Source of the DNA: an uncultured virus (IMG/VR IMGVR_UViG_3300036945_000909)
Taxonomy: Duplodnaviria; Heunggongvirae; Uroviricota; Caudoviricetes
Strand: one strand, 5' to 3'
Length of the DNA stretch: 64,000 bases
IMG/VR virus record: IMGVR_UViG_3300036945_000909
The notes under the pieces are model-generated. The model worked only from the letters and a program-made list of their open reading frames with translations, did not search any database and had not been told where the DNA came from. The translations under genes and the position numbers were made by a program. Below, piece by piece: positions 1 through 49,955 of this stretch (its first letter is position 1; each line of letters opens with the position of its first letter).

Positions 1-477
1 GCGTTAGCGGATATGCAAGGACAGATGGTAGCAGCACAACAATCGGTAGAAATTTCCGAAAGAGAAGCACAGGCATCGGTTAAACGTTCCGAAGGTGAGG
101 CTAAGGCAATTGAGTTAAAAGCAACTGCACAAGCAAACGCTAAAAAAGTAACTGCTTCAGCAGATGCAGCACAAATCGAATTAGTAGGTGCAGCGGAAGC
201 AACGAAGATTGAAGCAATTGGTAAATCAACCGCTGAGGCGTATAAGTTACAAGTTGATGCGATGGGTGGTGATAATTTCGCTAAGTTTAAGATTACCGAA
301 GAGATTGGTAAGAACGGAATTAAGATTATTCCAGAAATCTTAATCAATGGTAATGGTAATGGTTCACCGATTGATGGATTATTAGGAATGGAATTGTTAA
401 AACAAATTCAGAACAAAAAAGATATTCAATCAATTGTAGAAACAACAACTGAAACTACATCTAAAAAAAGTAAATAA
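1..477 (+). CDS. SPFH/flotillin-like protein, C-terminal part (gene starts before the window)
   Basis: Ala/Glu-rich coiled coil (AEAKAIELKATAQANA..GAAEATKIEAIG) and an IKIIPEILI motif typical of flotillin C-termini; frame is open from base 1. Confidence 0.7.
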   Translation, partial: ALADMQGQMVAAQQSVEISEREAQASVKRSEGEAKAIELKATAQANAKKVTASADAAQIELVGAAEATKIEAIGKSTAEAYKLQVDAMGGDNFAKFKITEEIGKNGIKIIPEILINGNGNGSPIDGLLGMELLKQIQNKKDIQSIVETTTETTSKKSK

Positions 478-480
478 AAT

Positions 481-957
481 ATGGCATTAGTATTAAAGCC
501 AGGTATGGTAGGGACGGGAGCAATCTCGTCCCCATCTGTATTTTTAGCAGGTTCTATTGAAATGGGAGTTGCTGAAAATTGGCAAGAAAGAATTGAAAGA
601 GAATTTTCAGATGAAGACCTAACATTCTTTAATCCTCGTAGAGATGATTGGGATAGTAGTTGGTCACAAACCGGAGAACAATTTAACACACAAGTAAATT
701 GGGAATTAAACGCATTGGATGATTCAGATATTATCTTTATGTATTTTTCACCCGAAACTAAATCTCCAATTTCTTTATTAGAATTGGGATTATATGCAGA
801 TTCACAAAAAATGATTGTAGTTTGTCCAGATGGATTTTGGAGAAAGGGTAATGTGAGTGTGGTGTGTACACGAAATAATATACCAATGTTTAATACAATC
901 GAAGAGGGTATATTTGCATTAAGAACCTCTGTTAGAAAAAATCAAAAATTATATTAG
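481..957 (+). CDS. Nucleoside 2-deoxyribosyltransferase-like protein
   Basis: VFLAGSI..WQ, FNPRR, QVNWE..ALD and SPISLLELGL motifs. Confidence 0.8.
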   Translation: MALVLKPGMVGTGAISSPSVFLAGSIEMGVAENWQERIEREFSDEDLTFFNPRRDDWDSSWSQTGEQFNTQVNWELNALDDSDIIFMYFSPETKSPISLLELGLYADSQKMIVVCPDGFWRKGNVSVVCTRNNIPMFNTIEEGIFALRTSVRKNQKLY

Positions 958-2598: not shown

Positions 2599-2612
2599 AA
2601 TATAAAACAATT

Positions 2613-3020: not shown

Positions 3021-3186
3021 AAATTACGATGATGATGTTTATTATAATGTTAGTTATACTTTTTTTATGGCTTGCATATGCAGGATGGTCTGCACCTCTT
3101 ATGAGAGAAAACAAAGATGGGAGTTGGACAACAATTCAACCACAAAAACGATTTAAAGAATTATTTAAAAAATCTAAAAAGAAATA

Positions 3187-3465: not shown

Positions 3466-3466
3466 A

Positions 3467-18342: not shown

Positions 18343-20172
18343 ATGGACGATATTTCAAAAGTAGAAAAACGTGTTCTTCAACAAATAGAAAGTAATGTTC
18401 CGTTGGTTGATGTGAAAATTGATTTAAGTAATTATCTGAAACACGCTTTTGTCAATGACCATATTGATAAATCTAAACAAGAAATAACTCACACTTTTCA
18501 ATATGAAACATTGGGAGAACAAGATTGTTTATTAATGCAAACTCCTAATATCAATGAATCTGGATATTATGCTGGTATCGTTGCGTTAAAATCCTACATA
18601 GATAAATTTCATTCAGATTTAAATGTTGCAATTATAGACCCCGTAATTGATTATTTCTATCTATACCCTCCTAATAAAGAATCCGAATTTTTTAATATGT
18701 TCAATACCTATGCAATGCAAGGTCAATATGAACGTTTATATGGATTCAAAGAAATGACTGATATAATTGAAGGATTTGTTTTCAAATATATCGAAAAAAC
18801 TAATCCAGCATTCGTTGGGTTGAGTATTATTGATGGTAATATAGATGCATCAATTGCAATTGCAAGAAGAGTTAAAGAACAATATCCACATATTAAAATT
18901 TTATTTGGTGGTAATGGTATTGAGATTTTAGACATTGGTGTTCTACCCAATCCATCATACACAACTGAAAAATATGATTTCATTGATATTTTTGTAAGGG
19001 GCGATGGTGAAATTACTTTTGTAGAAATATTAAAATCAGATATGTCTGAAGAATCCCTAAAAACTATAAATGGAATTATTTGGAGAAATTCGGAAGGTAA
19101 ACTAGTTCATAATCTTACTCGTGAAAATGTTGATATGGATATTTTACCATTTCCAGATTATGCTTCATTGGAGGAAAATTATTATTACAAATCTACCTAC
19201 CAATACAATGTTCCACTTGTTATGAGTAGAGGATGTCCTTACAGATGCACATTTTGTTCAGTGCCTGAATTTATTCCAGTCTTCCGCTATCGTAAATTAG
19301 AATCGGTAATTGAAGAAATGGAACATTGGATTAACAAAGGACGTTATCATTTCTTTTGTCACGATTCAATTATCAATGGTGATCCAAGATGGTTGAAAAA
19401 ATTCTGCGAAGCAGTTATTGAAAAAGATTGGTATGCAAAATATGGTGTATCGTTTGGTGGTAATATGCGATTACAAACTCCAATGCGTGATTTAGAAACA
19501 ATGCGATTATATCGTAAAGCAGGATTGTTGAAAATGATTACTGGGTTTGAATCTGCATCTGAGCCGGTTTTAAAGCATATGAAAAAATATCCTAATATGG
19601 ATGGGGTTAGAGAAATTTTTGAAAATGTTCGAATTATCAATAGTGAAAATGAACCCCCAATGATGTTTGCAATGCAACTTATTATTGGATACTTAAACGA
19701 AACTGAAGAAGATTTTCAAAAAACAATTGATTTTGTGAAAGAGTATAAAGATTGTATGTCTGAAATCTTAACTTGTTCTGGGTTTCTTATCCACGAAACT
19801 TTACGAAAGAAATGGGTAGAAGATGGTAATTTTTTACAATACCATAATACCGTTAATTTTAATACTAACTACAATACTGCAGAAGAACGTTTGGATAGAC
19901 TCAATAGAATCGATGAAGTATTTAAAGAAATCGGAATACCACATTCAGTATATAACAGAGGTTTATACTATGATTTAAAAGATAAAACTGATACTGAAAT
20001 AGGTGATATTTACAATATTGATGATTGTAAAAATCCGAACAAACTACAAGAAATAAATTCTTATTATAAAAATACTGAAGAAGAAATAATTGTGGAAATT
20101 CAATCAGAAATAATTGAAGAGCAAATTGAAATATCAATTGAAGAACCTCCTAAAATTACTAAACTAATTTAA
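18343..20172 (+). CDS. Cobalamin-binding radical SAM enzyme
   Basis: B12-binding-type domain (ILFGG, VRGDGE), LPFPDY, SRGCPYRCTFC, GFESAS. Confidence 0.9.
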   Translation: MDDISKVEKRVLQQIESNVPLVDVKIDLSNYLKHAFVNDHIDKSKQEITHTFQYETLGEQDCLLMQTPNINESGYYAGIVALKSYIDKFHSDLNVAIIDPVIDYFYLYPPNKESEFFNMFNTYAMQGQYERLYGFKEMTDIIEGFVFKYIEKTNPAFVGLSIIDGNIDASIAIARRVKEQYPHIKILFGGNGIEILDIGVLPNPSYTTEKYDFIDIFVRGDGEITFVEILKSDMSEESLKTINGIIWRNSEGKLVHNLTRENVDMDILPFPDYASLEENYYYKSTYQYNVPLVMSRGCPYRCTFCSVPEFIPVFRYRKLESVIEEMEHWINKGRYHFFCHDSIINGDPRWLKKFCEAVIEKDWYAKYGVSFGGNMRLQTPMRDLETMRLYRKAGLLKMITGFESASEPVLKHMKKYPNMDGVREIFENVRIINSENEPPMMFAMQLIIGYLNETEEDFQKTIDFVKEYKDCMSEILTCSGFLIHETLRKKWVEDGNFLQYHNTVNFNTNYNTAEERLDRLNRIDEVFKEIGIPHSVYNRGLYYDLKDKTDTEIGDIYNIDDCKNPNKLQEINSYYKNTEEEIIVEIQSEIIEEQIEISIEEPPKITKLI

Positions 20173-24977: not shown

Positions 24978-25337
24978 ATGAGAGCTAGAACATTTACAAC
25001 CGTTGGTTGGGAAAAATATCTAAATCCAATCGACAATCCTTTTGTTCAAAAATTTTTAGATAAAAATGGAAATGAGGTATTTGACCAAATTGCGTTAAAC
25101 ATAAACACCGCAATCCTTCAGAAAAAAGAATCAATAGCATTTGTAGTTCATACCAATGCATCTTCGATAGTTGTAATCGAACGAAAAGATTATGAAGTTG
25201 TGTTAAATCATTGTTTAGATTGGTTTATTAAAAAAGAAAATTATGAATTCTGTGCTAGAATTGATGAATTCAAACAAAATTTAGCAAAATCAAAAGAACC
25301 TGTTAGTAGATTTAAGAGTAAAAAAACTTTAATTTAA
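24978..25337 (+). CDS. Hypothetical protein with UVR-like C-terminal helix
   Basis: ENYEFCARI motif; ends KKTLI. Confidence 0.65.
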   Translation: MRARTFTTVGWEKYLNPIDNPFVQKFLDKNGNEVFDQIALNINTAILQKKESIAFVVHTNASSIVVIERKDYEVVLNHCLDWFIKKENYEFCARIDEFKQNLAKSKEPVSRFKSKKTLI

Positions 25338-27860: not shown

Positions 27861-29159
27861 ATGAAAAAGATATTATTTTTAATTTCAAGTGTTGTTCTTT
27901 TTACTGCGTGTAGTAAAGAAGATATTCCAGAACCAATTGTAATCAAAAAAGATAGTGTAATTGTAGTTCCACCATCACCCTCGTTTCAATCTAAAACGAT
28001 TGGAGATACTACCTATATTCTAAAAATTATACCTACTAAATACAATCTATATAAGGAATCTGTAAAAAACCAACGTAGTGGTATATTTTTCCAATGGCAA
28101 GAAAATTATGGGGTAAATCAGCAATATTTACCACAAACCGATGAAATGCCTAAAGCATGGGTTGGAGGTGGTCAGAATTATGGGGATGTAAATAATGATG
28201 GATTTATTGATTTCGTAGTTGCAGTTCATACATCTGCAACTGATGTTGAATTAAAGTGGTTTATCAATGATGGTGACAATTATCATTTCAAAAAGAATAC
28301 ATCCATGTTCAATCAAAGCACTAAAGGATTGAATGCACATAAGATAGTTAAAACGGATGTAAATAATGATGCTATCGCGGATTATATTACTTTCGGAGTG
28401 GATGAACGAATTCCTGGCGATTATAATGGTAATTTTTCCGTATTGATTGGTAAATCCAATGGAACGTTCGATGTGAATACAATTCCAAATCCAACTAAGT
28501 ATTGGTTTCATAATGGTGCGGTAGGTGATTTGAATAAAGATGGATTTGTAGATGTCATCTCAGCAACATTTATATGGTTTGGAGATGGTAATGGTAATTT
28601 TACAAAAGTTTCCAATCTAAATGATTATTGTCAATCAATATTAGTATATGAAATATTAGATATGAATGGCGATGGGTTGAATGATATTATTTTATCGGGC
28701 CCGAATGATGTTACTACGATAGTATATAACAACAATGGTATATTTAACAATTCGAATAGAGTTCTAAAATTAGAAAAAGTTCAATATAAAATTATTCAAG
28801 ATATTGAACTTTATGATATTGATTCGGATGGGGATTATGATATTATTGAGAATAGACAAATGGAAACCGAACCAAACTCAAAATTATTTGTTCATCTTAA
28901 TAATGGAAATACATTTAATTACGTTTCTGATTATATTCAAAACTCAAATGATGGTGCTTGGTTAAATGGAGATAAAAATGCTGGACCTGGATACCAAGAC
29001 AAATTTGGTTGGGATACTTTTAAATTTGATGATATTGATGGTGATGGAATTGATGATATTATACCTGAAAATTATCACGATGGTAAATTCAATGGTTTGA
29101 AAAAAATAAATGGAGTTTGGAAACCACATATTTTTTCTTTTCAAAAATGTAAAAAATAA
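27861..29159 (+). CDS. FG-GAP/VCBS repeat lipoprotein
   Basis: Lipobox FTAC; repeated DxNxDGxxD motifs. Confidence 0.88.
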   Translation: MKKILFLISSVVLFTACSKEDIPEPIVIKKDSVIVVPPSPSFQSKTIGDTTYILKIIPTKYNLYKESVKNQRSGIFFQWQENYGVNQQYLPQTDEMPKAWVGGGQNYGDVNNDGFIDFVVAVHTSATDVELKWFINDGDNYHFKKNTSMFNQSTKGLNAHKIVKTDVNNDAIADYITFGVDERIPGDYNGNFSVLIGKSNGTFDVNTIPNPTKYWFHNGAVGDLNKDGFVDVISATFIWFGDGNGNFTKVSNLNDYCQSILVYEILDMNGDGLNDIILSGPNDVTTIVYNNNGIFNNSNRVLKLEKVQYKIIQDIELYDIDSDGDYDIIENRQMETEPNSKLFVHLNNGNTFNYVSDYIQNSNDGAWLNGDKNAGPGYQDKFGWDTFKFDDIDGDGIDDIIPENYHDGKFNGLKKINGVWKPHIFSFQKCKK

Positions 29160-32563: not shown

Positions 32564-33133
32564 ATGTTTACACTTTTTATAGATAATTTTTTAACAAATG
32601 AAGAGTGTGAATCAATTATACAACTTGGAAAAGATAGTGGATTGCAGAAAATGTCATCATCTAAATTTGTAAATGGTGTTCATGTTGAAACCGCTATAAA
32701 TGAAGATACTAATAAACGAATGGGATGTTATTTGGTAGATACCGCATTACACCTCCCAATCATACAAGCCATTTCATCCAAAGTTATTCATACATTAAAT
32801 GAATTAAAAATATTTAATGGTTTAAATTATTCACATATACCAAAATATTCGTTCAATCAATATTCTAAAAATGATTTTTTAGATTGGCATTCAGATTTAC
32901 ATGAAATTCAATATGGTGCAACTATCACTACTATATTTCAGTTGAATGATTCTTATGATGGTGGTGATATAAAATATATAATAGATAATGTTGAATATTC
33001 CGTTCCCAAAAAAACTGGTAGTATTTTTATCTTCGATTCCAATATCTCTCATTCAGTTGATAAATTAACTGATGGTGTTAGATATTCATTAAACGTTTGG
33101 CCAGGAAGTGTTCTAAAAAAATCAATAATTTAA
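32564..33133 (+). CDS. 2OG-Fe(II) oxygenase (prolyl 4-hydroxylase-like)
   Basis: NFLT.EEC, WHSD, LND.YDGG, H.V and RYSL motifs. Confidence 0.88.
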   Translation: MFTLFIDNFLTNEECESIIQLGKDSGLQKMSSSKFVNGVHVETAINEDTNKRMGCYLVDTALHLPIIQAISSKVIHTLNELKIFNGLNYSHIPKYSFNQYSKNDFLDWHSDLHEIQYGATITTIFQLNDSYDGGDIKYIIDNVEYSVPKKTGSIFIFDSNISHSVDKLTDGVRYSLNVWPGSVLKKSII

Positions 33134-33145
33134 TAAATTAATCAT

Positions 33146-33481
33146 ATGAAATTTATAATAATATTTACCATATTCATATTAACATTATACATCGGTATAG
33201 GTTGGAACAAAATATGGGATAGGTATAAAATGTATTTATCCAAAGAGTATTGGACAGATTACAATATAATAGAATTAGCAGCATGGTTGGCTAAAGCAAT
33301 AATCATAATCCCAGGTCTAATATTTGGAGTTGAGTTGTGGTATATGCATTTTTTAACATTAGCAACTTCTTCTGCTTTAATTTGGGCATCGATGCGAAAA
33401 TCATTACCAACATTGATACTATTCAATACCATATGGATTTGTATATCACTAACAATAATAATAAGACACTTAATACCATAA
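33146..33481 (+). CDS. Small multi-TM membrane protein
   Basis: Hydrophobic; KSLPTLILFN motif. Confidence 0.7.
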   Translation: MKFIIIFTIFILTLYIGIGWNKIWDRYKMYLSKEYWTDYNIIELAAWLAKAIIIIPGLIFGVELWYMHFLTLATSSALIWASMRKSLPTLILFNTIWICISLTIIIRHLIP

Positions 33482-33482
33482 T

Positions 33483-34724
33483 ATGAAAGTAGTAATAATT
33501 GGTGGAGGAACTGCCGGGTGGTTAACTGCATTGGTAGTTAATAAATTTTGGAAAAACGCAGAAGTTACTTTAATTGAAAGTTCTAAGATAGGAATATTAG
33601 GAGCAGGAGAAGGTGGAACTCCCAATTTCGGAAGAATGTTGAGTTTGTTGGAAATTAATCATGAAGATTTTTTTGAAAAAACTAAATCAACCATAAAGAG
33701 TGGATTACATTTAGTTAATTGGACAGGTAATGGAGAATTATCAAAACATTTATTTAGTGGAGCAGAACCAGATTCATTTAATAAACATCATGCATACCAC
33801 TTCGATGCTCGAGCAGTTGCTGAATATTTTAAAGGTATTTCCATATCAAGAGGAGTTAATTGGATTGATGGTGAAGTTGATACAATTGAAAATAATGGTG
33901 ATGAAATTAAATCTGTTTCATTGAAAGATAATACTAAAATAGATTTAGATTTTGTATTTGATTGTAGTGGGTTCAAGCGTATTATCATAGATGGCGTACA
34001 TTCGGAAGAATGGATTGATTATGATAAATATTTAATGATGAATAAGGCGTTTACATTTTTCCTACCACAGTCTACGGAAGGTGTAGGGTATTCCAAAACA
34101 TATACTCGTATGGTTTCTATGAATTGTGGTTGGATGTTTCAAATACCACTACAACATAGATGGGGGTGTGGATATGTCCACAACGATAAATATATTTCAA
34201 TAGATGAAGCTAAGAAAGAAATCGAAGATTATTTGGGTCATGAAGTAAATATACAAAAGATATTTGATTTCAAACCAGGGACACATAAACGTAGTTGGAT
34301 AGGAAATTCAATATCAATTGGATTATCATATGGGTTTATTGAACCATTAGAAGCAACATCGTTAATGTCTACTATCATGCAATTAAAGAGATTAATTGAC
34401 GTGGAGTTTGATATGGAATATAGAGATAGATATAATACATGGTGCTATCAAATAAACGAACAAAATTTAAACTTCATACGATTCCATTATCTATGTGAAC
34501 GAACTGATACTGAATTTTGGAAGGATTGCACATCATTACCATTACCGACTAAATTAAAAAATATCTTAGATAAAAATAATGCACTAATACCTGTCAATGA
34601 TTCTCAATTATTTAATATGCTAGAATTAGAAGAAGCATCGATAAACGAATTAACATTTTATGTAAATAATTATTCTGCTATTTTTGTGAAAAATAAAAAC
34701 AAAGGAAAAAAACAATTGTTATAA
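33483..34724 (+). CDS. Flavin-dependent (tryptophan 7-halogenase-like) halogenase
   Basis: GGGTAGW, GAGEG, KSG..L.NW, AYHFDA, DCSGF, GWMFQIPL and GFIEPLEAT motifs. Confidence 0.9.
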   Translation: MKVVIIGGGTAGWLTALVVNKFWKNAEVTLIESSKIGILGAGEGGTPNFGRMLSLLEINHEDFFEKTKSTIKSGLHLVNWTGNGELSKHLFSGAEPDSFNKHHAYHFDARAVAEYFKGISISRGVNWIDGEVDTIENNGDEIKSVSLKDNTKIDLDFVFDCSGFKRIIIDGVHSEEWIDYDKYLMMNKAFTFFLPQSTEGVGYSKTYTRMVSMNCGWMFQIPLQHRWGCGYVHNDKYISIDEAKKEIEDYLGHEVNIQKIFDFKPGTHKRSWIGNSISIGLSYGFIEPLEATSLMSTIMQLKRLIDVEFDMEYRDRYNTWCYQINEQNLNFIRFHYLCERTDTEFWKDCTSLPLPTKLKNILDKNNALIPVNDSQLFNMLELEEASINELTFYVNNYSAIFVKNKNKGKKQLL

Positions 34725-34725
34725 T

Positions 34726-35367
34726 ATGGAAAAGATAATATTTGATAATGATATTTGTATTTGGAAAACCAAATTAAATTTATCTGAATCTAAGGGTGAA
34801 ATTTTAGAGTTATGTGAAGGTGTAGTAAAAAACAATTCAGATGGTGTAAATTTTGATGCATATTCATATTCCAAAATAAAAGATGATGTAAATTTTTTGG
34901 GTAATATTGTTATTAAAAATAAATTAGATGAGATTGGTCAAATATCTATAAACAATTGCAAAAAAATACACAACGATAGGGGTATCGATTTCAATATGAT
35001 AGAAACTGATGCTTGGGTTAATATTGTAAGAAGTGATAATCCAGTTCAATTAAATTTTAAGGAAGGTCATGAAAAATATCACATACATACCGAATTAAAT
35101 AAAACAAATAATTCATTCGTCCCATCTTACACCTATGTGTATTATATACAAATGCCTGATAGGATAGAGGGTGAAGATGCTGTTTTATATTTTAAAAGTA
35201 AAAGTGGTAAGGAATACTCCATATTGCCAGAAGAAGATGATTTAATAATTATGGAAGCAGATGTCCCACATGCACCAAATAATGCACCCAACTCTACAAT
35301 AGATAGAATTGTGTTTGCAGGTAATGTTGGATTAAGTTATGTTAAAAAAGAAAAGTCTTTAATATAA
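34726..35367 (+). CDS. Putative 2OG-Fe(II) oxygenase / DSBH protein
   Basis: AWVN, HIH, YVYYIQMP, H.P and RIVFAGN motifs. Confidence 0.7.
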   Translation: MEKIIFDNDICIWKTKLNLSESKGEILELCEGVVKNNSDGVNFDAYSYSKIKDDVNFLGNIVIKNKLDEIGQISINNCKKIHNDRGIDFNMIETDAWVNIVRSDNPVQLNFKEGHEKYHIHTELNKTNNSFVPSYTYVYYIQMPDRIEGEDAVLYFKSKSGKEYSILPEEDDLIIMEADVPHAPNNAPNSTIDRIVFAGNVGLSYVKKEKSLI

Positions 35368-36092
35368 TGCTAGTAGATAATAAATTTATATATCTAAGTT
35401 TACCGAGATGTGCATCAACTGCTTTTTTCATTTCATGTATTAGAAATGATATAAAAATTGAACATGCTCAAAATTCAGATGATAATATGTATCACACTAT
35501 TGATTTGGAATCAGTGAGTAATATAGAATTGGTTTATAACATTAATCATTTTCACGAAACAATTGAATCTTTAAAAACTAAGTTTGGAAATAGGTATGAA
35601 ATTATATCAGTAAAACGAAATCGTCATCAAAGATTCATTTCATATTTTAACCATATAATCGGTGAATTATACCGAAATGGATATATGGAATTATATCATA
35701 AAGTTTTGGAGTTAAATGTAAATGATATATTATTTTATAATAGTATTGATTTGATTAACGTTGAAAGTAGAGTAAAATTAGTTAATACGTTTTTAACTAA
35801 TATAGGATTCGTTGAATATGATAAAAATATACAATCATTATTCTTGCCATTGTTTTCACCATTGTGCACATATCATAACAATGATTCATCAATAAAATGG
35901 TTTGATTTTAATAATTTATCTGAATTAGAAAAATGGGTAAGTGTTAAATTAAATAAACCATTTAAATTGGAAAACTTTGGTTCTAGTTATAACTACAAAT
36001 CTAAGTTGATAATGGATGATGAGTTTATACAAAAATATAATAACATTTACGATTATTATGATTTACCAAAATCAACTAAAACTTTAATATAA
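35367..36092 (+). CDS. Sulfotransferase-fold protein (paralog 1)
   Basis: FIYLSLPRCAST (PAPS 5'-PSB-like) and RN...RFISYF (3'-PB-like) motifs. Confidence 0.7.
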   Translation: MLVDNKFIYLSLPRCASTAFFISCIRNDIKIEHAQNSDDNMYHTIDLESVSNIELVYNINHFHETIESLKTKFGNRYEIISVKRNRHQRFISYFNHIIGELYRNGYMELYHKVLELNVNDILFYNSIDLINVESRVKLVNTFLTNIGFVEYDKNIQSLFLPLFSPLCTYHNNDSSIKWFDFNNLSELEKWVSVKLNKPFKLENFGSSYNYKSKLIMDDEFIQKYNNIYDYYDLPKSTKTLI

Positions 36093-36850
36093 TGTTAGTA
36101 GATAATAAATTTATATATCTAAGTCTACCAAGATGTGCATCAACTGCATTTCATTATTCATGTCTTATATCCGATTTAAAAGTTGAAACTTATACCAATA
36201 CTTTAATACCATTAAATGATAATGTTGATTTTAAAACAATTGATAAATCTAATTTAATGAATCACATATATCATGCTCATGAATCAATTGGTGATTTACA
36301 ATCTAAATTTGGAACATCATATCCAGTTGTTGCAGTTAAACGAAACCGACATGAAAGATTTTATTCATTATATAAACACATCTTGTTTGATTTAAAACGA
36401 AGTGGTTATCCTAAAATTTATGAAGCTTTTTCTAAACTTACATTAGATGAATTATTTTTTTTTACTAAAAATGATTTAATTAATAAAAAACAAAGATGGG
36501 ATGTAATATCTCAATATTTAATTGACTTAAAACTATTAGATAAAAAAGTTGATATTATCAATTGGGAAAATACTATATTTGGTTATGCTGTAAATATGAT
36601 TGATATATTACTAACACCCATTTCATATTGGACAAATAACGATTCTAATATTATTTGGTTTGATTTTGATAAAATAAATGAATTGGAAAGATGGGTTTCT
36701 GAAAAAGTAGATAAACCCTTTAAATTAGAATCAGCAAATTCTAGCAAACACATTAAATGTAATATTACATTAGATGATAGGTTTATAAAGAAATATAATG
36801 ATATTTATGATTACTACGATTTACCAAAATCTACCATTACCTTAATATAA
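36092..36850 (+). CDS. Sulfotransferase-fold protein (paralog 2, tandem duplicate)
   Basis: First 20 aa identical to 35367; RN...RFYSLY; shared YDYYDLPKST tail. Confidence 0.7.
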   Translation: MLVDNKFIYLSLPRCASTAFHYSCLISDLKVETYTNTLIPLNDNVDFKTIDKSNLMNHIYHAHESIGDLQSKFGTSYPVVAVKRNRHERFYSLYKHILFDLKRSGYPKIYEAFSKLTLDELFFFTKNDLINKKQRWDVISQYLIDLKLLDKKVDIINWENTIFGYAVNMIDILLTPISYWTNNDSNIIWFDFDKINELERWVSEKVDKPFKLESANSSKHIKCNITLDDRFIKKYNDIYDYYDLPKSTITLI

Positions 36851-36854
36851 TAAT

Positions 36855-37142
36855 ATGATTGATTACAAAGAAATATTTGAAGCATGGAAAATATCGTTTA
36901 ATCCAAATCATTCACAAGAATTATTAGCAAAGGAACGATTGGATGTATGTTTGGGATGTGATTTTAGAAAAGAAGTTTTAAAAGGAGTAAAGTGGTCTGC
37001 ATATTGTGGTGATTGTGGGTGTCCGTTAAATAAAAAAGTATTTTCAACTATGTTTAACCCATGCACTCAAAAAAAATGGGAAAATGTAGATTCTAAGTAT
37101 TTAGATATAATTAAAACTAAAAATAAAAATTCTATAATTTAA
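36855..37142 (+). CDS. Small Cys-rich metal-binding protein (DUF6171-like)
   Basis: RLDVC.GC, C.DCGCPL.KK and C...KW motifs. Confidence 0.65.
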   Translation: MIDYKEIFEAWKISFNPNHSQELLAKERLDVCLGCDFRKEVLKGVKWSAYCGDCGCPLNKKVFSTMFNPCTQKKWENVDSKYLDIIKTKNKNSII

Positions 37143-37188
37143 ATAATCATATATTTATAGAAGAATATTAAACAAATATAAGGATTTT

Positions 37189-38676
37189 ATGAAAGCAACT
37201 ATCATAGGTAGCGATTTATTGGAAAAAAATGGAAGTGTTAAGTTTTTAGAAATAAACACAAACACAACCATTTATAACACAGGTGCCGATTTATTAGATT
37301 ATACCGCATTATTTGATGTCTTAACAACTAACAACATAACTGAATTTCATTTTATATGGACAGAAGTGGATTCATATACCCCACTTGTAGAACCATTTAG
37401 ATTTAAAGAAATTTTACAAGAAAAATGTGCGGAAAATAACATATCATTCACAGAATATGTAGTTCCTGTTAATTCAGTAACCGTTCCATACATTGAAGAT
37501 GCACCTAACAAATTTATATTAAGACAATCATATGATACTACTGCATTAGTAGATGAAACATATTGTGCTAATAAATTTGAGTTCTTTAACTTAATGAGTG
37601 GGTCTGAATATATTCCTGCTACATATTTTAGTGGTAGTGCTCTACAAATGGATGAATTTGCTACATTGGATACATCATTAGATGCACCAAATGTTTTAGT
37701 TAAAGCAAACTCTCCTTCGTATGATTTAAATTTATATCCAGCATTATACAAATTAGATGATATTTCTGAATTGAACAGTCTAAAAACCGAATTAGGTTCT
37801 GATTACTTAGTTCAGGAATTTGTGTATTCAGATGACAATATTGTTGATGGTAGATATTCTATCATTCGTAGTATTGATATTATATATGGTTCTAACTTAG
37901 ATGTAATTAACTTAGGTGGGTATAAACAAAGCACATTAATACCGATGAGTTTTACTACTGATGAATTTGTAGTAGATACTAAAAGATTAAATCAAAAAAG
38001 TAGAATAAAATATATTTCAAAACCTATTACAAGAGAATATGCTAATGAATATCATACCGATTCTGATTCTGTTATTTTAGATTATACCGGTTCATTGGTA
38101 GATGTAGATAATTTGCAATTAGGTGATTATATAAAATCTATAAATTTCCAAGATATTCATGGTAATAATGCAGCTGCATTTGACCAAACTCTCTTAGAAA
38201 CCTATGGTTGGGAAACTACAATACCACAAGCAAATGAAACCCTAACTGCAGAATCATCGAGTTTAGCAAATATGTATTCGTCATCAGTTGATACTATCTA
38301 TGTAAGAATTACATTAGAAGATGGTAAAACGTGGGTTGATGCACCTTCTTGTACATACTTCATCGAAGAAAACGATTCAGATAAAACTAGATTTGAAAAA
38401 GTAAATAATATGGTAGTGGGTGATAAATTGGTTGTAACCGATGCATCTACAAACCAATTGACTACGATAGCAATTACATCATTGGAAATGGAACATGCCC
38501 AAACAATTATTTATAGTTTAGACTTTGAACCATCTGATTTATTCTTAGTAGATGTGGGGGGTGGATTGTTTAGTGTGATGCACAATACTTGTTGGTGTCC
38601 ATGGATTTATTGCGGATACTTTTGCAACTCATACTACTGCCCTGGCTGCGGTGGTGGTGGATTTGAAAAAGCATAA
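37189..38676 (+). CDS. ATP-grasp-like + Hint (intein-like) fusion with a C-terminal Cys-rich peptide
   Basis: N-terminal FLEINTN, VLVK, YLVQEF and IIRS (circularly permuted ATP-grasp-like); Hint elements L.LGDYI, RITLEDG, VVGDKL, IYSLD.EPSDLFLV and terminal MHN; then TCWCPWIYCGYFCNSYYCPGCGGGGFEKA. Confidence 0.7.
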   Translation: MKATIIGSDLLEKNGSVKFLEINTNTTIYNTGADLLDYTALFDVLTTNNITEFHFIWTEVDSYTPLVEPFRFKEILQEKCAENNISFTEYVVPVNSVTVPYIEDAPNKFILRQSYDTTALVDETYCANKFEFFNLMSGSEYIPATYFSGSALQMDEFATLDTSLDAPNVLVKANSPSYDLNLYPALYKLDDISELNSLKTELGSDYLVQEFVYSDDNIVDGRYSIIRSIDIIYGSNLDVINLGGYKQSTLIPMSFTTDEFVVDTKRLNQKSRIKYISKPITREYANEYHTDSDSVILDYTGSLVDVDNLQLGDYIKSINFQDIHGNNAAAFDQTLLETYGWETTIPQANETLTAESSSLANMYSSSVDTIYVRITLEDGKTWVDAPSCTYFIEENDSDKTRFEKVNNMVVGDKLVVTDASTNQLTTIAITSLEMEHAQTIIYSLDFEPSDLFLVDVGGGLFSVMHNTCWCPWIYCGYFCNSYYCPGCGGGGFEKA

Positions 38677-38705
38677 TATTACTAATTAAAAAAATATAAA
38701 ATAAA

Positions 38706-38846
38706 ATGGCAACTATAAATAAAACACACAGACCAGCTTCAGTAATTAAAGCTAACATCACTCCACTATCAAGTGAATTAAAAGTGAAACTTGCAAATGC
38801 AGTTAGTGAGGTTGTAAATAAAATCAAAGAAACCCATTTAAATTAA
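38706..38846 (+). CDS. 46-aa peptide (not in the ORF track)
   Basis: MATINKTHRPASVIKANITPLSSELKVKLANAVSEVVNKIKETHLN*; its stop overlaps the next ATG (TAATG). Confidence 0.7.
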   Translation: MATINKTHRPASVIKANITPLSSELKVKLANAVSEVVNKIKETHLN

Positions 38847-39541
38847 TGGCTTCATCCAGATTACATCAATTAAAAATAGTTGATAGTATTGTGGGCGTTG
38901 AAAATGGGAATATATTATTATCAAAAATAGAAATAGATTATGGTAATGATATTAAAAAACATAGTGATTTTACATTACGAAATATTGTCTATGATGTATC
39001 TAATTACATCGAAATGACATTAAACTCCGATTGGAGTATTTTAAATACAATTACCATACAAGATATACAACTATTATGGGGTGAATATATTACAGAATAT
39101 CGTAATAATTATTCATCCCATAATTATATTGAAACTAATGCTATTTTATTGGATAGTAGAGTTGGTGGTATTGGGTATTATTGGGTTGATTTGAATACCC
39201 ATCATTCAATTGAAATGATTGCTCGAATGGATAATTGTGGTAGATGTGATTATGACAATACCTTAATTGAATTACGAGAATCTACCCATCATTCGAACAA
39301 ATCCCACATTGTTATTGTATATAATAAATCAAACGGGTTAATCAAACAAATAAAAGGTATAGGTGATAATCTCCCATCTGAAACTTATTGGGATGAAATA
39401 TTTAATTTCTATATCAACACACCATATTTAATTTCAGGTCATAATTATACACAGAAAGAAGGTTTAGATTTTAAACCAGAAATGTTTAGTAAAGAAAAAT
39501 ATGAATTAGTCAAATCTAAAATTATAACTAACTTATTATGA
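38846..39541 (+). CDS. Hypothetical protein, PcfJ-like C-terminal domain
   Basis: M..CG, LIELR, SHIVI and IKQIKG...P motifs. Confidence 0.55.
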   Translation: MASSRLHQLKIVDSIVGVENGNILLSKIEIDYGNDIKKHSDFTLRNIVYDVSNYIEMTLNSDWSILNTITIQDIQLLWGEYITEYRNNYSSHNYIETNAILLDSRVGGIGYYWVDLNTHHSIEMIARMDNCGRCDYDNTLIELRESTHHSNKSHIVIVYNKSNGLIKQIKGIGDNLPSETYWDEIFNFYINTPYLISGHNYTQKEGLDFKPEMFSKEKYELVKSKIITNLL

Positions 39542-40104
39542 ATTATACTATAAATAATAATTTTTGTGATAAAGCTGAAGCTAATTCTATAATTGATTTT
39601 TGTATCAACTATGGTGAACCCTTTTCATATAACCCAACTCAAAATTGGGATTGTAGACGTATATACGATGATGAATTTAAGAAAAAAATAATTACTTTAT
39701 TAGTAGATAATTACAAAACGGAAAAATTTAAATTATGGTTTGATTACACTAATTTTAATTTAAAAAACTTCAACATCAGTCTAACATCATATTACAATGG
39801 TAGATATTTAAATTTGCATAAAGATAAGACAAGTGAACTAACAACGGTAATAGTATTATCGGATGGGTTTGAAGGTGGTGAGTTTGCACTATGTGAAGGT
39901 AAAAATCCACCAATACATTTTGAAACCTTAGAAGGGATTTCAACCTTTAATCTTAACTTAGGAGATTCCATCTCATTTAATGGGTCTGAAACATATCATG
40001 GAGTATTACCCGTAACCAATGGTATTAGATATGCATTAAATATTTGGATGACTGAAACCGATTTTGATTATCCAAAACTTAAAGTTAATACTACATTATT
40101 ATGA
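39538..40104 (+). CDS. 2OG-Fe(II) oxygenase
   Basis: LHKD, FEGGEF, HGVLPV and RYALNIW motifs. Confidence 0.88.
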   Translation: MNYTINNNFCDKAEANSIIDFCINYGEPFSYNPTQNWDCRRIYDDEFKKKIITLLVDNYKTEKFKLWFDYTNFNLKNFNISLTSYYNGRYLNLHKDKTSELTTVIVLSDGFEGGEFALCEGKNPPIHFETLEGISTFNLNLGDSISFNGSETYHGVLPVTNGIRYALNIWMTETDFDYPKLKVNTTLL

Positions 40105-40748
40105 GAGTTGCAATACTAACAAGTGCACGAAGTGGTTCTACGAGTTTATATCATTTAATCGAAGCACATTTAAATAAAAAAAATCATATTTGTATATCAG
40201 AACCATTTAATAATTATTGGCGAGAGAAGATAGGTAAACAAACATATGATGTGATTTTTTTTGAAAATAAGAAAAACATTTTTATAAAAACATTTGTCAG
40301 TAAAACTCAAAAACCAAAAAGTTTATTAGAAAATGAAGATGTATATTGGGAGTGGTTTTTTAACTACTTTGAAAAAATAATTTTATTAGATAGAATAGAT
40401 AAAGATTTACAAAGTGAAAGTTTAACATATCATATAAAAACAGATGATATTCATAGTTGGCAAAAAAGACAAGTATATGATTTATCAATAACTACACCTG
40501 AAGAGATTCTTAATAGTAAAAATGTATTATTAAATGAATCCAATATGATACATGAATTTTCTAAAAAAGGCTATCCCTTATATTATTTTGAAGATATTTT
40601 TATTAAAAAAGATAAAAGTAAAATCATCGATATTTTTAAATATTTAGATATAGATTTGAACGAATCAATGTATAATGATTATGTGTATTCTGATGCGTGT
40701 AAAATACGAATAGGTGAAGACGAATCCAAATTTAAAAGTATAATATAG
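40101..40748 (+). CDS. Sulfotransferase-like (Stf0-type P-loop) protein
   Basis: ARSGSTSL, SEPFN, ILLDR.D...Q.ES and YYFED motifs. Confidence 0.72.
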   Translation: MRVAILTSARSGSTSLYHLIEAHLNKKNHICISEPFNNYWREKIGKQTYDVIFFENKKNIFIKTFVSKTQKPKSLLENEDVYWEWFFNYFEKIILLDRIDKDLQSESLTYHIKTDDIHSWQKRQVYDLSITTPEEILNSKNVLLNESNMIHEFSKKGYPLYYFEDIFIKKDKSKIIDIFKYLDIDLNESMYNDYVYSDACKIRIGEDESKFKSII

Positions 40749-48742: not shown

Positions 48743-48821
48743 AAATTATAAAAGGAATAATATTCATAATTAATTTAGTTATTAATAAAATTAAAAGAAA
48801 AAGAAAATCAATTTGGGATTT

Positions 48822-49955
48822 ATGAATACAATAGATAAAAAATATCAGGACTTACTACAAGATATATTAGATACGGGAATCGTTAAATCAGATAGAACTG
48901 GTACTGGTACTATATCTACATTTGGAAGACAAATTAGACATAGAATGTCACAAGGATTTCCATTACTAACCACAAAGAAAATGGCGTGGAAAACTATGGT
49001 GACTGAATTACTATGGTTTTTAAGAGGTGATACTAACATCAAGTTCCTATTGGATTACGATTGCCACATTTGGACTGGTGATGCTTACAAAAGATATGTT
49101 GAAGCGCATAAAAAGGAATGGAGTGATAAAATGACTCCCGAACAATTAGAAAAATCATATCCTGATGTTAAGGAGTTTGAAAATCTAATTAAGACAGTTC
49201 CTGAATTTGCAAAAACATGGGGTGAGTTAGGTCCAATTTATGGTAAACAATGGAGAAAATGGGAATTAGCAAATTATTCTATAGATCACGTTGAATATGG
49301 TTTACCTAACGATTTATATGTGGATCAAATACAAAACCTAATCAACGACCTTAAAACAAATCCAGATAGTAGAAGAATGATGGTAAGTGCTTGGAATGTT
49401 GGTGCATTGGATGCAATGGTTCTACCACCCTGCCATTATGGATTTCAAGTTTATACAAGAGAGTTGAGTTTGAAAGAACGATTAGATTTGGCATCTAAAA
49501 CTTATAGTACATTTGAACCTTTTGATTTCCATGTAGGCGACCATAACGAAATAGATGAGTTATATCCAGTTCCTAAACGAGCAATCTCATTAATGTGGAA
49601 TCAAAGAAGTGTAGATACCCCGTTGGGACTTCCATTCAATATTGCTTCATATGGTTTGTTGTTGGAAATCATAGCAAAGGAAGTTAATATGATACCTGAT
49701 GAATTGATTGGTAATTTGGGTGATTGTCACATATATAAAAATCAAATTGATGGTGTTAATGAACAATTAACTCGTGAACCATTTGAATTACCAAAAGTAC
49801 AAATAACAGAAAGGAATTGGTATCAACACAAAGTAGTTAAAGAATATTTAGAACCAAAAACATTTAAAGATAAAATATTATCATATAGGCCAGATTCTTT
49901 TGAATTGATTGGGTATCAATCTCATAGTAAAATAAAAATGCCATTATCAAATTAA
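48822..49955 (+). CDS. thyA: Thymidylate synthase
   Basis: DRTGTGT, ELLWFL, LPPCH, QRSVD..LGLPFNIASY and DCHIY motifs. Confidence 0.96.
   Translation: MNTIDKKYQDLLQDILDTGIVKSDRTGTGTISTFGRQIRHRMSQGFPLLTTKKMAWKTMVTELLWFLRGDTNIKFLLDYDCHIWTGDAYKRYVEAHKKEWSDKMTPEQLEKSYPDVKEFENLIKTVPEFAKTWGELGPIYGKQWRKWELANYSIDHVEYGLPNDLYVDQIQNLINDLKTNPDSRRMMVSAWNVGALDAMVLPPCHYGFQVYTRELSLKERLDLASKTYSTFEPFDFHVGDHNEIDELYPVPKRAISLMWNQRSVDTPLGLPFNIASYGLLLEIIAKEVNMIPDELIGNLGDCHIYKNQIDGVNEQLTREPFELPKVQITERNWYQHKVVKEYLEPKTFKDKILSYRPDSFELIGYQSHSKIKMPLSN

What the first reader, a model, noticed from the sequence alone, without database searches (positions are those of the whole stretch)
37189..38676. ATP-grasp-like enzyme fused to a Hint domain that should self-release a 29-aa Cys/aromatic-rich peptide
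Seen: the 495-aa protein has an N-terminal ATP-grasp-like region, then a Hint fold ending in the intein signature MHN. After that comes TCWCPWIYCGYFCNSYYCPGCGGGGFEKA (nt 38587-38673), with 6 Cys, 2 Trp, 4 Tyr and 2 Pro. The Hint N-terminus has no Cys/Ser nucleophile and block-B TxxH is degenerate (DAPSC). Known: such Hint domains cleave at their C-terminus by Asn cyclisation without splicing, and ATP-grasp enzymes ligate or cyclise peptides (e.g. graspetides). Inference: this is a single-polypeptide enzyme + autoprotease + core-peptide precursor, a RiPP-like design that I do not know from phages.
Basis: partly seen in the sequence, partly recalled or inferred. Interest (0 to 1): 0.92.

Follow-up and report, generated by a model that had tools for sequence, protein, structure and literature searches.

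The report
Self-cleaving phage enzyme with cysteine-rich peptide
A large marine-type phage encodes one protein that joins an ATP-using ligase, a self-cutting Hint domain and a short, fast-evolving cysteine-rich peptide, which may be the unknown substrate of the hydroxylase, halogenase and sulfotransferase genes around it.

Summary
ORF 37189-38676 (+) encodes 495 aa. Predicted structures show three parts. Residues 1-285 are a circularly permuted ATP-grasp ligase of the glutathionylspermidine/glutathione-synthetase type. Residues 289-466 are a Hint domain with His at position 1, no TxxH block and a C-terminal His-Asn. Residues 467-495 are an unmodelled 29-aa tail with 6 Cys.

The family is large, almost only viral, and absent from Pfam, PHROGs and NCBIfam. 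The ligase residues D9, E21, N23, R112, D122, K172 and R227 are near-invariant. In the Hint domain only H465-N466 reach 90% conservation. The part after HN is a swappable module: cysteine-rich tails with an even Cys count, 1-3 canonical Hint domains, an S74 autopeptidase, or a few residues.

The gene lies in a conserved cluster of 2OG dioxygenases, sulfotransferase-like proteins, a Trp halogenase and a Cys-rich 95-aa protein. Many of these end in K-x-(S/T)-L-I.

The best reading is a self-processing precursor that releases a disulfide-rich, probably tailored peptide by Asn cyclisation. Cleavage, tailoring and the ligase substrate are all inferred, not shown. The graspetide analogy is not supported.

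The parts
37189..38676 (+). Whole gene, 495 aa (P0001): ATP-grasp ligase, Hint domain and Cys-rich tail
37189..38043 (+). Residues 1-285: circularly permuted ATP-grasp-like amidoligase domain. It opens with the E21-x-N23 hairpin. Near-invariant residues are D9, E21, N23, R112, D122, K172 and R227.
   Evidence: Weak RimK / ATPgrasp_ST hits to residues 1-42 occur in 3 of 66 homologues.
38053..38586 (+). Residues 289-466: Hint domain. His289 sits at position 1 and block B is degenerate (DAPSC, 384-388). It carries an insert of about 30 aa relative to mini-Hints.
38578..38586 (+). M464-H465-N466: intein-type C-terminal His-Asn and the predicted Asn-cyclisation cleavage site (N466|T467)
   Evidence: H465 is kept in 96% and N466 in 99% of 107 rows. 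They are the only Hint positions at 90% or more. N466 aligns with the terminal Asn of inteins.
38587..38673 (+). Residues 467-495: 29-aa tail TCWC...FEKA with 6 Cys. It is the putative released peptide.
   Evidence: pLDDT is below 50 for residues 473-495.
36855..37142 (+). 95-aa protein directly upstream, with invariant C32, C35, C51, C54 and C56. It looks like a zinc ribbon by eye and belongs to no named family.
35367..36850 (+). Two tandem paralogues (241 and 252 aa) of a sulfotransferase-like family
   Evidence: A profile hits heparan-sulfate 2-O-sulfotransferase at E 3.8e-4, with the PAPS-loop and His motifs aligned. The Atlas points to Sulfotransfer_2. The family is present in 109 of 119 loci with Cys-rich tails.
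34726..35367 (+). 213-aa 2OG-Fe(II)-oxygenase-like protein
   Evidence: E 0.0014, below the Pfam cut-off
33483..34724 (+). FAD-dependent tryptophan halogenase, 413 aa
   Evidence: E 5.7e-88
32564..33133 (+). 2OG-Fe(II) oxygenase, 189 aa
38706..38846 (+). 46-aa ORF directly downstream, unknown function, no Cys
   Evidence: Found in 70 of 79 close loci by tblastn. No family hit.
38846..39541 (+). 231-aa protein of unknown family ending in ...TNLL
39538..40104 (+). 2OG-Fe(II) oxygenase, 188 aa
40101..40748 (+). 215-aa protein with a PRxGST...R...S pattern. It looks like a sulfotransferase by eye only; this was not tested.
   Evidence: no Pfam hit

Best explanation
The protein is a self-processing precursor encoded by a T4-like phage.

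Shown by structure prediction and conservation:
- An N-terminal ATP-grasp amidoligase of the glutathionylspermidine / glutathione-synthetase type that looks catalytically intact.
- A Hint domain that has lost the residues for the N-terminal acyl shift (Cys1 to His289, no TxxH) but keeps the terminal His465-Asn466.
- A C-terminal 29-aa peptide with six cysteines.

Inferred:
- Asn466 cyclises to a succinimide and cuts the N466|T467 bond, as in intein C-terminal cleavage. This frees a peptide of about 3 kDa with a new alpha-amine.
- The peptide's six cysteines form three disulfides once it is outside the reducing cytoplasm, for example after lysis.

More weakly inferred:
- While still attached to its 466-aa carrier, which would act like a self-removing leader, the peptide is tailored by the co-clustered enzymes. 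These are 2OG dioxygenases (hydroxylation), a Trp halogenase and sulfotransferase-like proteins.
- The ATP-grasp domain activates a peptide carboxylate, as its nearest structural relatives do, to amidate or ligate it. Its substrate is unknown.
For: Architecture.

Catalytic signature. In 107 homologues down to 21% identity, the only Hint positions kept at 90% or more are H465 (96%) and N466 (99%). The ligase domain keeps D9, E21, N23, R112, D122, K172 and R227 at 99-100%. The same residues are invariant or at 90% or more (K169 = K172) in a separate set of 30 distant homologues.

A module follows HN. Among 229 family genes in viral contigs, 164 have Cys-rich tails, 44 have HN followed directly by 1-3 canonical Hint domains, 3 have a Cys-rich stretch then a Hint, 1 has S74, 5 have tails of 10 aa or fewer, 7 are 'other' and 5 were scored as lacking HN.

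Self-cleaving domains on both flanks. In some homologues the Cys-rich stretch is also followed by a self-cleaving domain. This is either a canonical Hint starting with Cys or Peptidase_S74, which is above the Pfam cut-off in 3 homologues.

Tail evolution. The tail evolves faster than the core, and its Cys count is even in 114 of 114 unique tails from loci and in 75 of 79 tails of the 50%-identity representatives. This pattern fits paired cysteines.

+1 residue. It is not conserved (S, G, T, A, P; in the A4 group 13 different residues). That fits cleavage rather than splicing.

Context. Counts are for loci with 4 or more genes on each side, within 8 genes of the family gene, comparing Cys-rich-tail loci with HN+Hint loci:
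- 2OG oxygenase: 112/119 vs 36/40.
- Cys-rich 95-aa protein: 106/119 vs 9/40.
- Sulfotransferase-like protein: 109/119 vs 0/40.
- Trp halogenase: 34/119 vs 0/40.
The gene order differs between subfamilies (upstream in the window's group, downstream in the A4 group) while adjacency is kept. Of the 80 best viral loci of the 95-aa protein, 79 hold the family gene. The sulfotransferase assignment rests.
Against: No experiment or read-level evidence of cleavage was available.

AlphaFold2 leaves the tail unmodelled (pLDDT below 50), so nothing places it in any active site.

Forty-four of 229 homologues have no peptide after HN, only further Hint domains, and 5 have tails of at most 10 aa. The conserved ligase plus Hint core therefore must have a function that does not need a Cys-rich cargo.

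Some homologues have Pro at +1 (3 of 60 and 2 of 54 unique tails). From recall, Pro at +1 hampers intein C-terminal cleavage.

An even Cys count also fits metal sites.

The link between tail type and neighbouring genes is confounded by descent. The presence of a Cys-rich tail changes only 3 times on the tree of 130 unique cores, so no test is possible.

Clusters of 2OG oxygenases and halogenases are common in phages of this kind and could act on other substrates. Iyer et al. 2010 (PMC2938197, passages read) proposed small-molecule metabolites.
Confidence: 0.5

Rival explanations
1. The tail stays attached. The protein is simply an ATP-grasp amidoligase that makes a small amide product, for example a peptide-polyamine conjugate like its GspS and YgiC relatives. 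It carries an inactive, structural Hint domain and a C-terminal metal-binding or disulfide-stabilised cysteine knuckle. The His-Asn is kept for folding or for contact with the ligase domain.
For: The ligase residues are the most conserved part of the protein. The nearest structures are small-molecule or peptide amidoligases. In the window's subgroup the Cys pattern is conserved and under purifying selection, with pN/pS 0.10 from one valid pair. An even Cys count also fits metal sites. Homologues without any Cys-rich tail keep the core.
Against: A purely structural Hint would not be expected to keep only its two C-terminal catalytic residues at 96-99% while all other positions drift. The tail is replaced wholesale by unrelated modules, including self-cleaving ones, and is the fastest-evolving part. 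AlphaFold2 does not dock it on the core.
Confidence: 0.25
2. It is a conjugation device. The point of the Hint chemistry, with or without the ATP-grasp, is to activate a C-terminal carboxylate and attach the core or the tail covalently to an amine on another molecule. This would resemble cholesterol transfer by hedgehog HhC or the ubiquitin-like conjugation by BIL domains of the Tetrahymena BUBL locus. The tail or the extra Hint domains would then be leaving groups or activating modules.
For: The best structural match of the Hint domain is the BUBL BIL2 domain (Z 16.4). Forty-four of 229 homologues follow HN directly with canonical Cys1 Hint domains that end in VHN plus one or two residues and carry no cargo. 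Such domains would form a thioester on the core's C-terminus. ATP-grasp enzymes of this clade also activate C-terminal carboxylates (established knowledge of GSH and GSP synthetases).
Against: The window protein has no Cys1 Hint and so no thioester route. No target is evident. The role of BUBL BIL domains is recalled, not read here.
Confidence: 0.12
3. It is a virion or tail-fibre-like structural protein whose variable C-terminus is a receptor-binding tip. The S74 domain in some homologues would act as the usual intramolecular chaperone of fibres.
For: Peptidase_S74 is present at the C-terminus of some homologues. The C-terminus is hypervariable.
Against: The body is an enzyme fold plus a Hint domain, not a fibre or beta-helix. 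There is no PHROG structural hit. The gene lies among metabolic genes, far from the baseplate genes at the window's end.
Confidence: 0.05

Closest known systems
Pretoxin Hint (PT-HINT) domains of bacterial polymorphic toxins
   Same: A Hint domain sits immediately upstream of a hypervariable C-terminal module that it is thought to release. PT-HINT is among the Pfam hits of the extra Hint domains of longer homologues, and it hits the core Hint of one homologue weakly (P0220, E 4.6e-4, below the cut-off).
   Different: There is no secretion or trafficking domain and no RHS or filamentous repeats. The cargo is a 25-60 aa cysteine-rich peptide, not an enzyme toxin. The host is a phage, and the Hint is fused to an ATP-grasp ligase. 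No variable immunity gene was identified.
Inteins and bacterial intein-like (BIL) domains; hedgehog HhC
   Same: The fold is the same: Z 13-16.4 with rmsd about 2-2.5 over about 135-150 residues. The terminal His-Asn aligns with the intein terminal Asn.
   Different: Position 1 is His, not Cys or Ser. Block B TxxH is absent. The +1 residue is not a conserved nucleophile. Splicing and N-terminal cleavage are therefore not expected, only C-terminal cleavage.
Glutathionylspermidine synthetase (GspS), E. coli YgiC/YjfC, eukaryotic glutathione synthetase, E-64 ligase Cp1B
   Same: These are the best structural matches of residues 1-285, at Z 7.9-9.9. They share the permuted order in which the Mg-binding hairpin comes first. 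All are ATP-dependent carboxylate-amine ligases.
   Different: There is no sequence-level match (no Pfam GSP_synth hit). The domain is about 100 residues shorter than YgiC (model 1..275 aligns to chain 94..371). Its substrates are unknown.
Graspetides (microviridin-type RiPPs)
   Same: An ATP-grasp enzyme is encoded together with a ribosomal peptide.
   Different: Here the enzyme and peptide are one polypeptide. The ligase is of another ATP-grasp clade. The tails lack the Asp/Glu donors needed for omega-ester or omega-amide rings.
Tandem dioxygenase / tryptophan-halogenase clusters of cyanophages (Syn9), Iyer et al. 2010, PMC2938197
   Same: The gene neighbourhood is of the same kind: several unrelated 2OG dioxygenases plus a Trp halogenase. 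That paper proposed a role in amino-acid-derived secondary metabolites (passages read).
   Different: The passages read name no ATP-grasp-Hint protein and no ribosomal peptide substrate. This report proposes one.
Cone-snail conopeptides (comparison from recall)
   Same: They are short, hypervariable, disulfide-rich peptides with a conserved Cys framework. Their known modifications include hydroxyproline, bromotryptophan and sulfotyrosine. These are the reactions expected of the enzyme classes encoded around this gene.
   Different: They are unrelated in origin and are released by separate proteases from signal/pro-peptides. No modification has been shown here.

Membership tests
Hint / intein superfamily | Hint fold | tested here: met
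   Foldseek E 5.5e-8 to 1at0. VIA Z 16.4 to 6y75 and Z 13-16 to more than 40 intein entries. Profile vs PDB: KlbA intein at E 2.4e-8.
Hint / intein superfamily | Nucleophile (Cys/Ser/Thr) at position 1 | tested here: not met
   Model residue 289 (His) aligns with intein residue 1. There is no Cys in block A of the 7 core Hints aligned.
Hint / intein superfamily | Block B TxxH | tested here: not met
   Block B aligns to A385-P-S-C388 within 'DAPSC' and is degenerate in all core Hints aligned.
Hint / intein superfamily | C-terminal His-Asn | tested here: met
   H465 is kept in 96% and N466 in 99% of 107 rows. N466 aligns to the terminal Asn.
Inteins (splicing) | Cys/Ser/Thr at +1 for ligation of exteins | tested here: not met
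   The window has Thr. Across unique tails +1 is S33, G12, T6, A6, P3 in the close group and 13 different residues in the A4 group.
Hint / intein superfamily | Autocatalytic cleavage | not testable with these tools
   This needs expression of the wild type and of N466A.
ATP-grasp superfamily (GSP-synthetase / eukaryotic GSH-synthetase-like, permuted) | ATP-grasp fold with this clade's topology | tested here: met
   VIA-wide gives YgiC Z 9.9 and GspS Z 9.3, and the top 11 of 48,161 chains are all of this clade. Classical ATP-grasp enzymes score Z 5.5-6.4 from residue about 50 onward. Foldseek E is 7.5e-7. The Z values are moderate.
ATP-grasp superfamily | Mg/ATP-binding residues (E-x-N motif, phosphate-binding Lys/Arg) | tested here: inconclusive
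   E21 and N23 are invariant, and D9, K172, R112 and R227 are kept at 99-100%. Residues 1-42 hit the C-terminal E-x-N region of RimK or ATPgrasp_ST weakly in 3 of 66 homologues (E 0.055-0.099). The equivalence to GspS D318/E330/N332 rests on the range 1..280 = 310..608 plus recalled residue numbers. No residue-level structural alignment was available.
ATP-grasp superfamily | Match to a curated sequence model | tested here: not met
   There are 0 Pfam or NCBIfam families for the protein or for residues 1-285 at meaningful E-values.
Graspetide RiPPs | Core peptide with Asp/Glu and Ser/Thr/Lys partners for ATP-grasp side-chain rings | tested here: not met
   Asp and Glu are not among the 12 commonest tail residues in either group. 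Cys, Gly, Tyr/Pro, Trp and Ser dominate.
RiPPs in general | Ribosomal precursor whose core is modified by co-encoded enzymes and released from a leader | not testable with these tools
   Only the context is known: co-clustered dioxygenases, halogenase and sulfotransferase-like proteins.
Polymorphic toxin systems (PT-HINT type) | N-terminal secretion/trafficking module and a cognate variable immunity gene after the toxin | tested here: not met
   The N-terminus is the ligase domain. The downstream 46-aa ORF is conserved (70 of 79 loci, mean identity 53%), not variable.
Peptidase S74 (intramolecular chaperone autopeptidase) | S74 domain at the C-terminus | tested here: not met
   It is absent from the window protein. 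It is present only in some homologues, above the Pfam cut-off in P0166, P0173 and P0182.

The most novel reading that the evidence does not exclude
This is a phage-encoded pathway for conotoxin-like peptides. The 466-aa ligase-Hint body would be a self-removing leader and assembly platform. The tailoring enzymes around it are dioxygenases, halogenase, sulfotransferases and, in relatives, radical SAM enzymes. At least a dozen of these unrelated families end in the same C-terminal K-x-(S/T)-L-I tag, and they would dock on the platform through that tag. They would hydroxylate, halogenate and sulfate the cysteine-rich tail. Asn466 cyclisation would then release the peptide, which would oxidise to a knotted, hypervariable extracellular peptide at lysis. 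Its role could be that of a toxin, signal or metal binder. In relatives where the Cys-rich segment lies between two self-cleaving domains (Hint HN| ... |Cys1-Hint), the free amine and the thioester could even give natural intein-type head-to-tail cyclisation.
Probability: 0.22. Interest if true: 0.92.

Novelty: new variant of a known kind. Interest (0 to 1): 0.8.

Why it matters
The tandem dioxygenase and halogenase clusters of marine T4-like phages were noted in 2010 (PMC2938197), and in the passages I read no substrate was named. This family offers a concrete, testable candidate: a ribosomal peptide fused to its own releasing domain and to a ligase. If cleavage and tailoring are confirmed, it would be a new way to build and release a modified peptide, with no separate leader protease and with enzyme, autoprotease and core in one chain. 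It would also show that abundant lytic phages make disulfide-rich peptides of unknown ecological role. The family has at least 568 clusters at 90% identity and 285 representatives at 50% identity, and it has no name in Pfam, PHROGs or NCBIfam. The shared C-terminal tag on unrelated neighbouring enzymes is a second, independent lead to how phage accessory enzymes might be organised.

Tried and rejected
Database and collection searches with no result:
- Sequence libraries gave nothing for the protein itself: Pfam, PHROGs, PDB sequences and NCBIfam.
- The phage GenBank collection gave no match by megablast or tblastn.
- The window's own assembly is not held. The nearest record, G001, has no homologue.
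- Searching Pfam GSP_synth in G001 gave no loci for a residue-level comparison with GspS or YgiC.

Complex prediction. A job pairing the protein with the upstream 95-aa protein gave no verdict (score 0.02). It counts neither for nor against binding.

Tail type against neighbouring genes. A phylogenetic test failed for lack of independent changes: 3 changes of 'has Cys-rich tail' on 130 cores, giving 2-3 independent pairs.

Selection on the tail. Only one pair (window vs L001) was in register, and it shows purifying selection, not positive selection. The core has pN/pS 0.07. The tail has 0.10, from 3 nonsynonymous and 7 synonymous differences. The other pairs carry indels, so their numbers are invalid.

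Cellular genomes. A scan with the A4 subgroup alignment found 1 relative among 169 candidate stretches. It lies on a 2,044-bp contig of an archaeal MAG and is probably mis-binned phage DNA.

Literature. Four full-text searches found no description of this architecture. The 2009 amidoligase survey (PMC3268129) is not held, so it could not be checked. A prior mention there cannot be excluded.

A corrected guess. My first guess that block B was 'TLED' was wrong.

Not attempted: sequencing-run and read-laying tools, because RNA reads cannot show protein cleavage.
Full report
**The observation**

ORF 37189-38676 on the + strand encodes 495 aa ending ...FSVMHN|TCWCPWIYCGYFCNSYYCPGCGGGGFEKA. Pfam, PHROGs, PDB sequences and NCBIfam do not recognise the protein.

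The window is AT-rich (31% G+C). All its genes lie on one strand. It carries gp25 baseplate wedge, PhoH, thymidylate synthase, carbamoyltransferase, peptide deformylase, UvdE, Hsp20 and several 2OG-Fe(II) oxygenases. This is the gene set of a large T4-like phage of aquatic bacteria.

**Structure of the whole protein**

An alignment of 107 homologues (A1) gave an AlphaFold2 model with pLDDT 88.6 and pTM 0.81. Only the linker 282-285 and the tail 473-495 fall below pLDDT 50.

**The Hint domain**

- Foldseek matches hedgehog HhC (1at0, E 5.5e-8), BIL domains and many inteins.
- VIA-align gives Z 16.4 to the BUBL BIL2 domain (6y75, 143 residues, rmsd 2.1) and Z 13-16 to more than 40 intein entries.
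- Model residues 289..466 map on intein residues 1..last. His289 therefore sits where inteins have Cys1, and Asn466 where they have the terminal Asn.
- The family profile hits the KlbA intein by sequence alone (E 2.4e-8).
- I aligned the core Hint with canonical Hint domains found in longer homologues. Block F His is Asp in the window protein. Block G ends in HN.

**The ligase domain**

Residues 1-285 were modelled alone (pLDDT 94.4).

- Foldseek finds E. coli YjfC (E 7.5e-7), YgiC, human and yeast glutathione synthetase and GspS.
- An all-against-representatives search gives YgiC Z 9.9 (198 residues, rmsd 3.9, model 1..275 on chain 94..371) and GspS Z 9.3 (1..280 on 310..608). The top 11 of 48,161 chains are all of this clade.
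- Classical ATP-grasp enzymes (TTLL, LysX/ArgX, RimK) score Z 5.5-6.4 and align only from about residue 50.

This fits a circular permutation in which the Mg-binding E-x-N hairpin, normally near the C-terminus, comes first. Three of 66 distant homologues give weak hits of residues 1-42 to the C-terminal part of the RimK or ATPgrasp_ST models. The Z values are moderate, and I could not obtain a residue-level superposition. The match of D9, E21 and N23 to the GspS Mg ligands rests on the aligned ranges plus recalled residue numbers.

**Conservation**

In A1, positions E21, N23, R112, D122 and R227 are invariant. D9, K172, T24, Y125 and P167 are kept at 98-99%. The same residues are invariant or at 90% or more (K169 = K172) in a separate alignment of 30 distant homologues at 17-42% identity.

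In the Hint domain the only positions at 90% or more are H465 (96%) and N466 (99%). An otherwise freely drifting Hint that keeps just its two C-terminal catalytic residues is the signature expected of a domain that performs only Asn cyclisation. The ligase looks active.

**The family**

- The word-indexed search found 568 clusters at E <= 1e-3 among 8,000 scored candidates. Most of the 120 best listed are 491-499 aa and all are 'hypothetical'.
- The exhaustive search of 50%-identity representatives found 285.
- Cluster look-ups and the protein Atlas give no names and viral taxa only.
- One scan of 185,579 species genomes with the A4 subgroup found a single relative, on a 2-kb contig of an archaeal MAG.

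**What follows HN**

In the window's subgroup the tail keeps the pattern x-CWCPW-x-YCG-xx-C-xxxx-C-xx-C plus a variable end that mostly finishes in K-hydrophobic.

Across 229 family genes found in 234 viral loci plus the window, the classes are:

| Class after HN | Genes |
|---|---|
| Cys-rich tail | 164 |
| 1-3 canonical Hint domains directly after HN | 44 |
| 'Other' | 7 |
| Scored as lacking HN | 5 |
| Tail of 10 aa or fewer | 5 |
| Cys-rich stretch, then a Hint | 3 |
| S74 | 1 |

- Each canonical Hint starts with Cys, ends in VHN, and is followed by one or a few residues and then the next Hint or the stop codon.
- Two of the five scored as lacking HN are 5'-truncated ORFs that do show HN in print.
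- Pfam confirms the extra Hint domains (PT-HINT, Intein_splicing, Hint, Vint; E down to 1e-19). It also confirms Peptidase_S74 after the Cys-rich stretch in other homologues, above the cut-off in three.
- In several homologues the Cys-rich segment therefore lies between two self-cleaving domains.

**Tail evolution**

| Group | Unique sequences | Identity: ligase | Identity: Hint | Identity: tail | Tail identity without Cys | Cys per tail |
|---|---|---|---|---|---|---|
| Window's group | 60 | 0.67 | 0.66 | 0.55 | 0.45 | 6 in all 60 |
| A4 group | 54 | 0.56 | 0.47 | 0.28 | 0.22 | 8 (34), 6 (18), 4 (1), 10 (1) |

Every one of the 114 unique tails has an even Cys count. Among the 50%-identity representatives, 75 of 79 tails with 4 or more Cys are even. 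At least two of the four odd ones are cases where my script failed to cut off a C-terminal Hint or S74 domain.

The +1 residue is not conserved. The one close pair in register (window vs L001) shows purifying selection on the tail, with pN/pS 0.10 from 3 nonsynonymous and 7 synonymous differences.

The tail is thus a real, constrained, fast-evolving module with a cysteine framework. It is not an invariant zinc finger.

**Context**

I clustered 4,694 ORFs of all loci. The genes most often within 8 genes of the family gene are listed below. The totals come (229 loci with a family gene). The last two columns come and cover only loci with at least 4 genes on each side.

| Neighbour | Loci (of 229) | Cys-rich-tail loci (of 119) | HN+Hint loci (of 40) |
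|---|---|---|---|
| 2OG-Fe(II) oxygenase | 212 | 112 | 36 |
| 95-aa protein with invariant CxxC...CxxCxC | 157 | 106 | 9 |
| 243-aa family (two copies in the window) | 145 | 109 | 0 |
| 187-aa family (40101-40748 in the window) | 131 | 82 | 14 |
| 212-aa 2OG-like family | 110 | 73 | 11 |
| Radical SAM enzyme (not in this window's cluster) | 94 | 44 | 24 |
| Family with a GDS...DxxH pattern | 93 | 48 | 16 |
| Trp halogenase | 45 | 34 | 0 |

- The 243-aa family is sulfotransferase-like. Its profile hits heparan-sulfate 2-O-sulfotransferase at E 3.8e-4, with the PAPS-loop, His and R...S motifs aligned. The Atlas points to Sulfotransfer_2.
- The radical SAM family hits N_Twi_rSAM at E 1.2e-15, below the curated cut-off.
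- In the A4 group the 95-aa and sulfotransferase genes lie downstream of the family gene. In the window's group they lie upstream. Adjacency has therefore survived rearrangement.
- Of the 80 best viral loci of the 95-aa protein, 79 contain the family gene. The exception is a contig end.

The caveat is descent. On a tree of 130 unique cores, 'has a Cys-rich tail' changes only 3 times, so the association cannot be tested.

**A shared C-terminal tag**

Nine of the twelve consecutive genes from 32564 to 40748 end in a variant of K-x-(S/T/x)-(L/I)-(I/L). Examples are KKSII, KKQLL, KEKSLI, KSTKTLI, STITLI, KNKNSII, ITNLL, NTTLL and KFKSII. So do the B12-radical-SAM gene at 18343-20172 (KITKLI) and ORF 24978-25337 (KKTLI). 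A strict pattern matches 8 of 96 window ORFs.

Across all loci, (S/T)-hydrophobic-hydrophobic at the C-terminus is found in 57-91% of unique members of at least eight unrelated neighbour families. It is found in 0% of many other neighbour families and in 0 of 166 unique family proteins. I cannot explain the tag. A common docking partner is the obvious idea. A complex-prediction job on the 95-aa protein gave no verdict.

**Interpretation**

- Shown: the architecture, the selective conservation of His-Asn and of the ligase residues, the modular and fast-evolving even-Cys tail, and the conserved neighbourhood.
- Inferred: cleavage at N466|T467 by succinimide formation, disulfide formation after release, tailoring by the neighbouring enzymes, and action of the ligase on a peptide carboxylate.
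- Against a simple 'precursor' view: a fifth of homologues carry no Cys-rich cargo at all, and the tail is not modelled near any active site.

I put about 0.5 on self-release of the peptide, less on tailoring, and less still on any particular ligase reaction. The graspetide analogy fails on ligase clade and on tail composition.

**Literature**

Iyer et al. 2010 (PMC2938197; passages read) described the cyanophage dioxygenase/halogenase clusters and proposed secondary-metabolite synthesis. The passages I read mention no ATP-grasp-Hint protein. Four full-text searches and passages of the jumbo-phage survey PMC7824862 gave no description of this architecture. The 2009 amidoligase survey (PMC3268129) is not held, so a prior mention there cannot be excluded.

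Noticed in passing
window 32564-40748, 18343-20172, 24978-25337; loci L001-L234: Unrelated enzymes share a C-terminal tag of the form K-x-(S/T)-(L/I)-(I/L)-COOH. They include 2OG oxygenases, sulfotransferase-like proteins, the Trp halogenase, radical SAM enzymes, the 95-aa Cys protein and others. The tag is seen in 57-91% of unique members of at least eight neighbour families and in 0% of many other neighbours. It looks like a class-I PDZ-type ligand (recalled). Its binding partner is unknown.
   Followed up: partly
loci L095-L153 (e.g. L117:220-2961, L102:8001-10256): Homologues end in arrays of 1-3 canonical mini-Hint domains (Cys1 ... VHN). These are separated by spacers of 1-7 residues and followed only by one or two residues. 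They have no C-extein and no +1 nucleophile, so they should only remove themselves.
   Followed up: partly
P0047, P0083, P0085, P0166, P0173, P0182 and others: In some homologues the Cys-rich stretch is followed by a Peptidase_S74 autopeptidase starting at K|SD. The Cys-rich segment is then flanked on both sides by self-cleaving domains.
   Followed up: partly
window 18343-20172: A 609-aa B12-binding radical SAM protein gives sub-threshold similarity to BchE and to RiPP-maturation C-methyltransferases (TIGR03975, E 4e-28; ApyD, E 7e-25). It also carries the C-terminal ...KITKLI tag.
   Followed up: no
window 1465-4048: An RNA-repair-like set of genes: RNA ligase with a PHA02142 OB domain, a cREC_REC cyclic-phosphate-processing receiver domain, and HAD_SAK_2. 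A Fpg/Nei-type glycosylase follows at 4053-4823.
   Followed up: no
window 48813-49955: The thymidylate synthase is 380 aa, yet the Pfam match covers profile positions 1-265 across residues 9-379. This implies an insertion of roughly 100 aa.
   Followed up: no
window 27861-29159: A 432-aa protein has FG-GAP repeats and a weak lipoprotein signal match at residues 1-18.
   Followed up: no
L294 (contig of an archaeal MAG, 2,044 bp): This is the only family member found in the species-genome collection. It sits on a 2-kb contig binned with a Diapherotrites MAG and is most likely mis-binned phage DNA.
   Followed up: no
A4-group tails (L155-L234): Tails of the distant subgroup keep a C-x-K motif in mid-tail (e.g. 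CPK, CGK, CDK), and tails of the window's subgroup mostly end in K-hydrophobic. Roughly one conserved Lys per tail may be a modification or ligation site.
   Followed up: no
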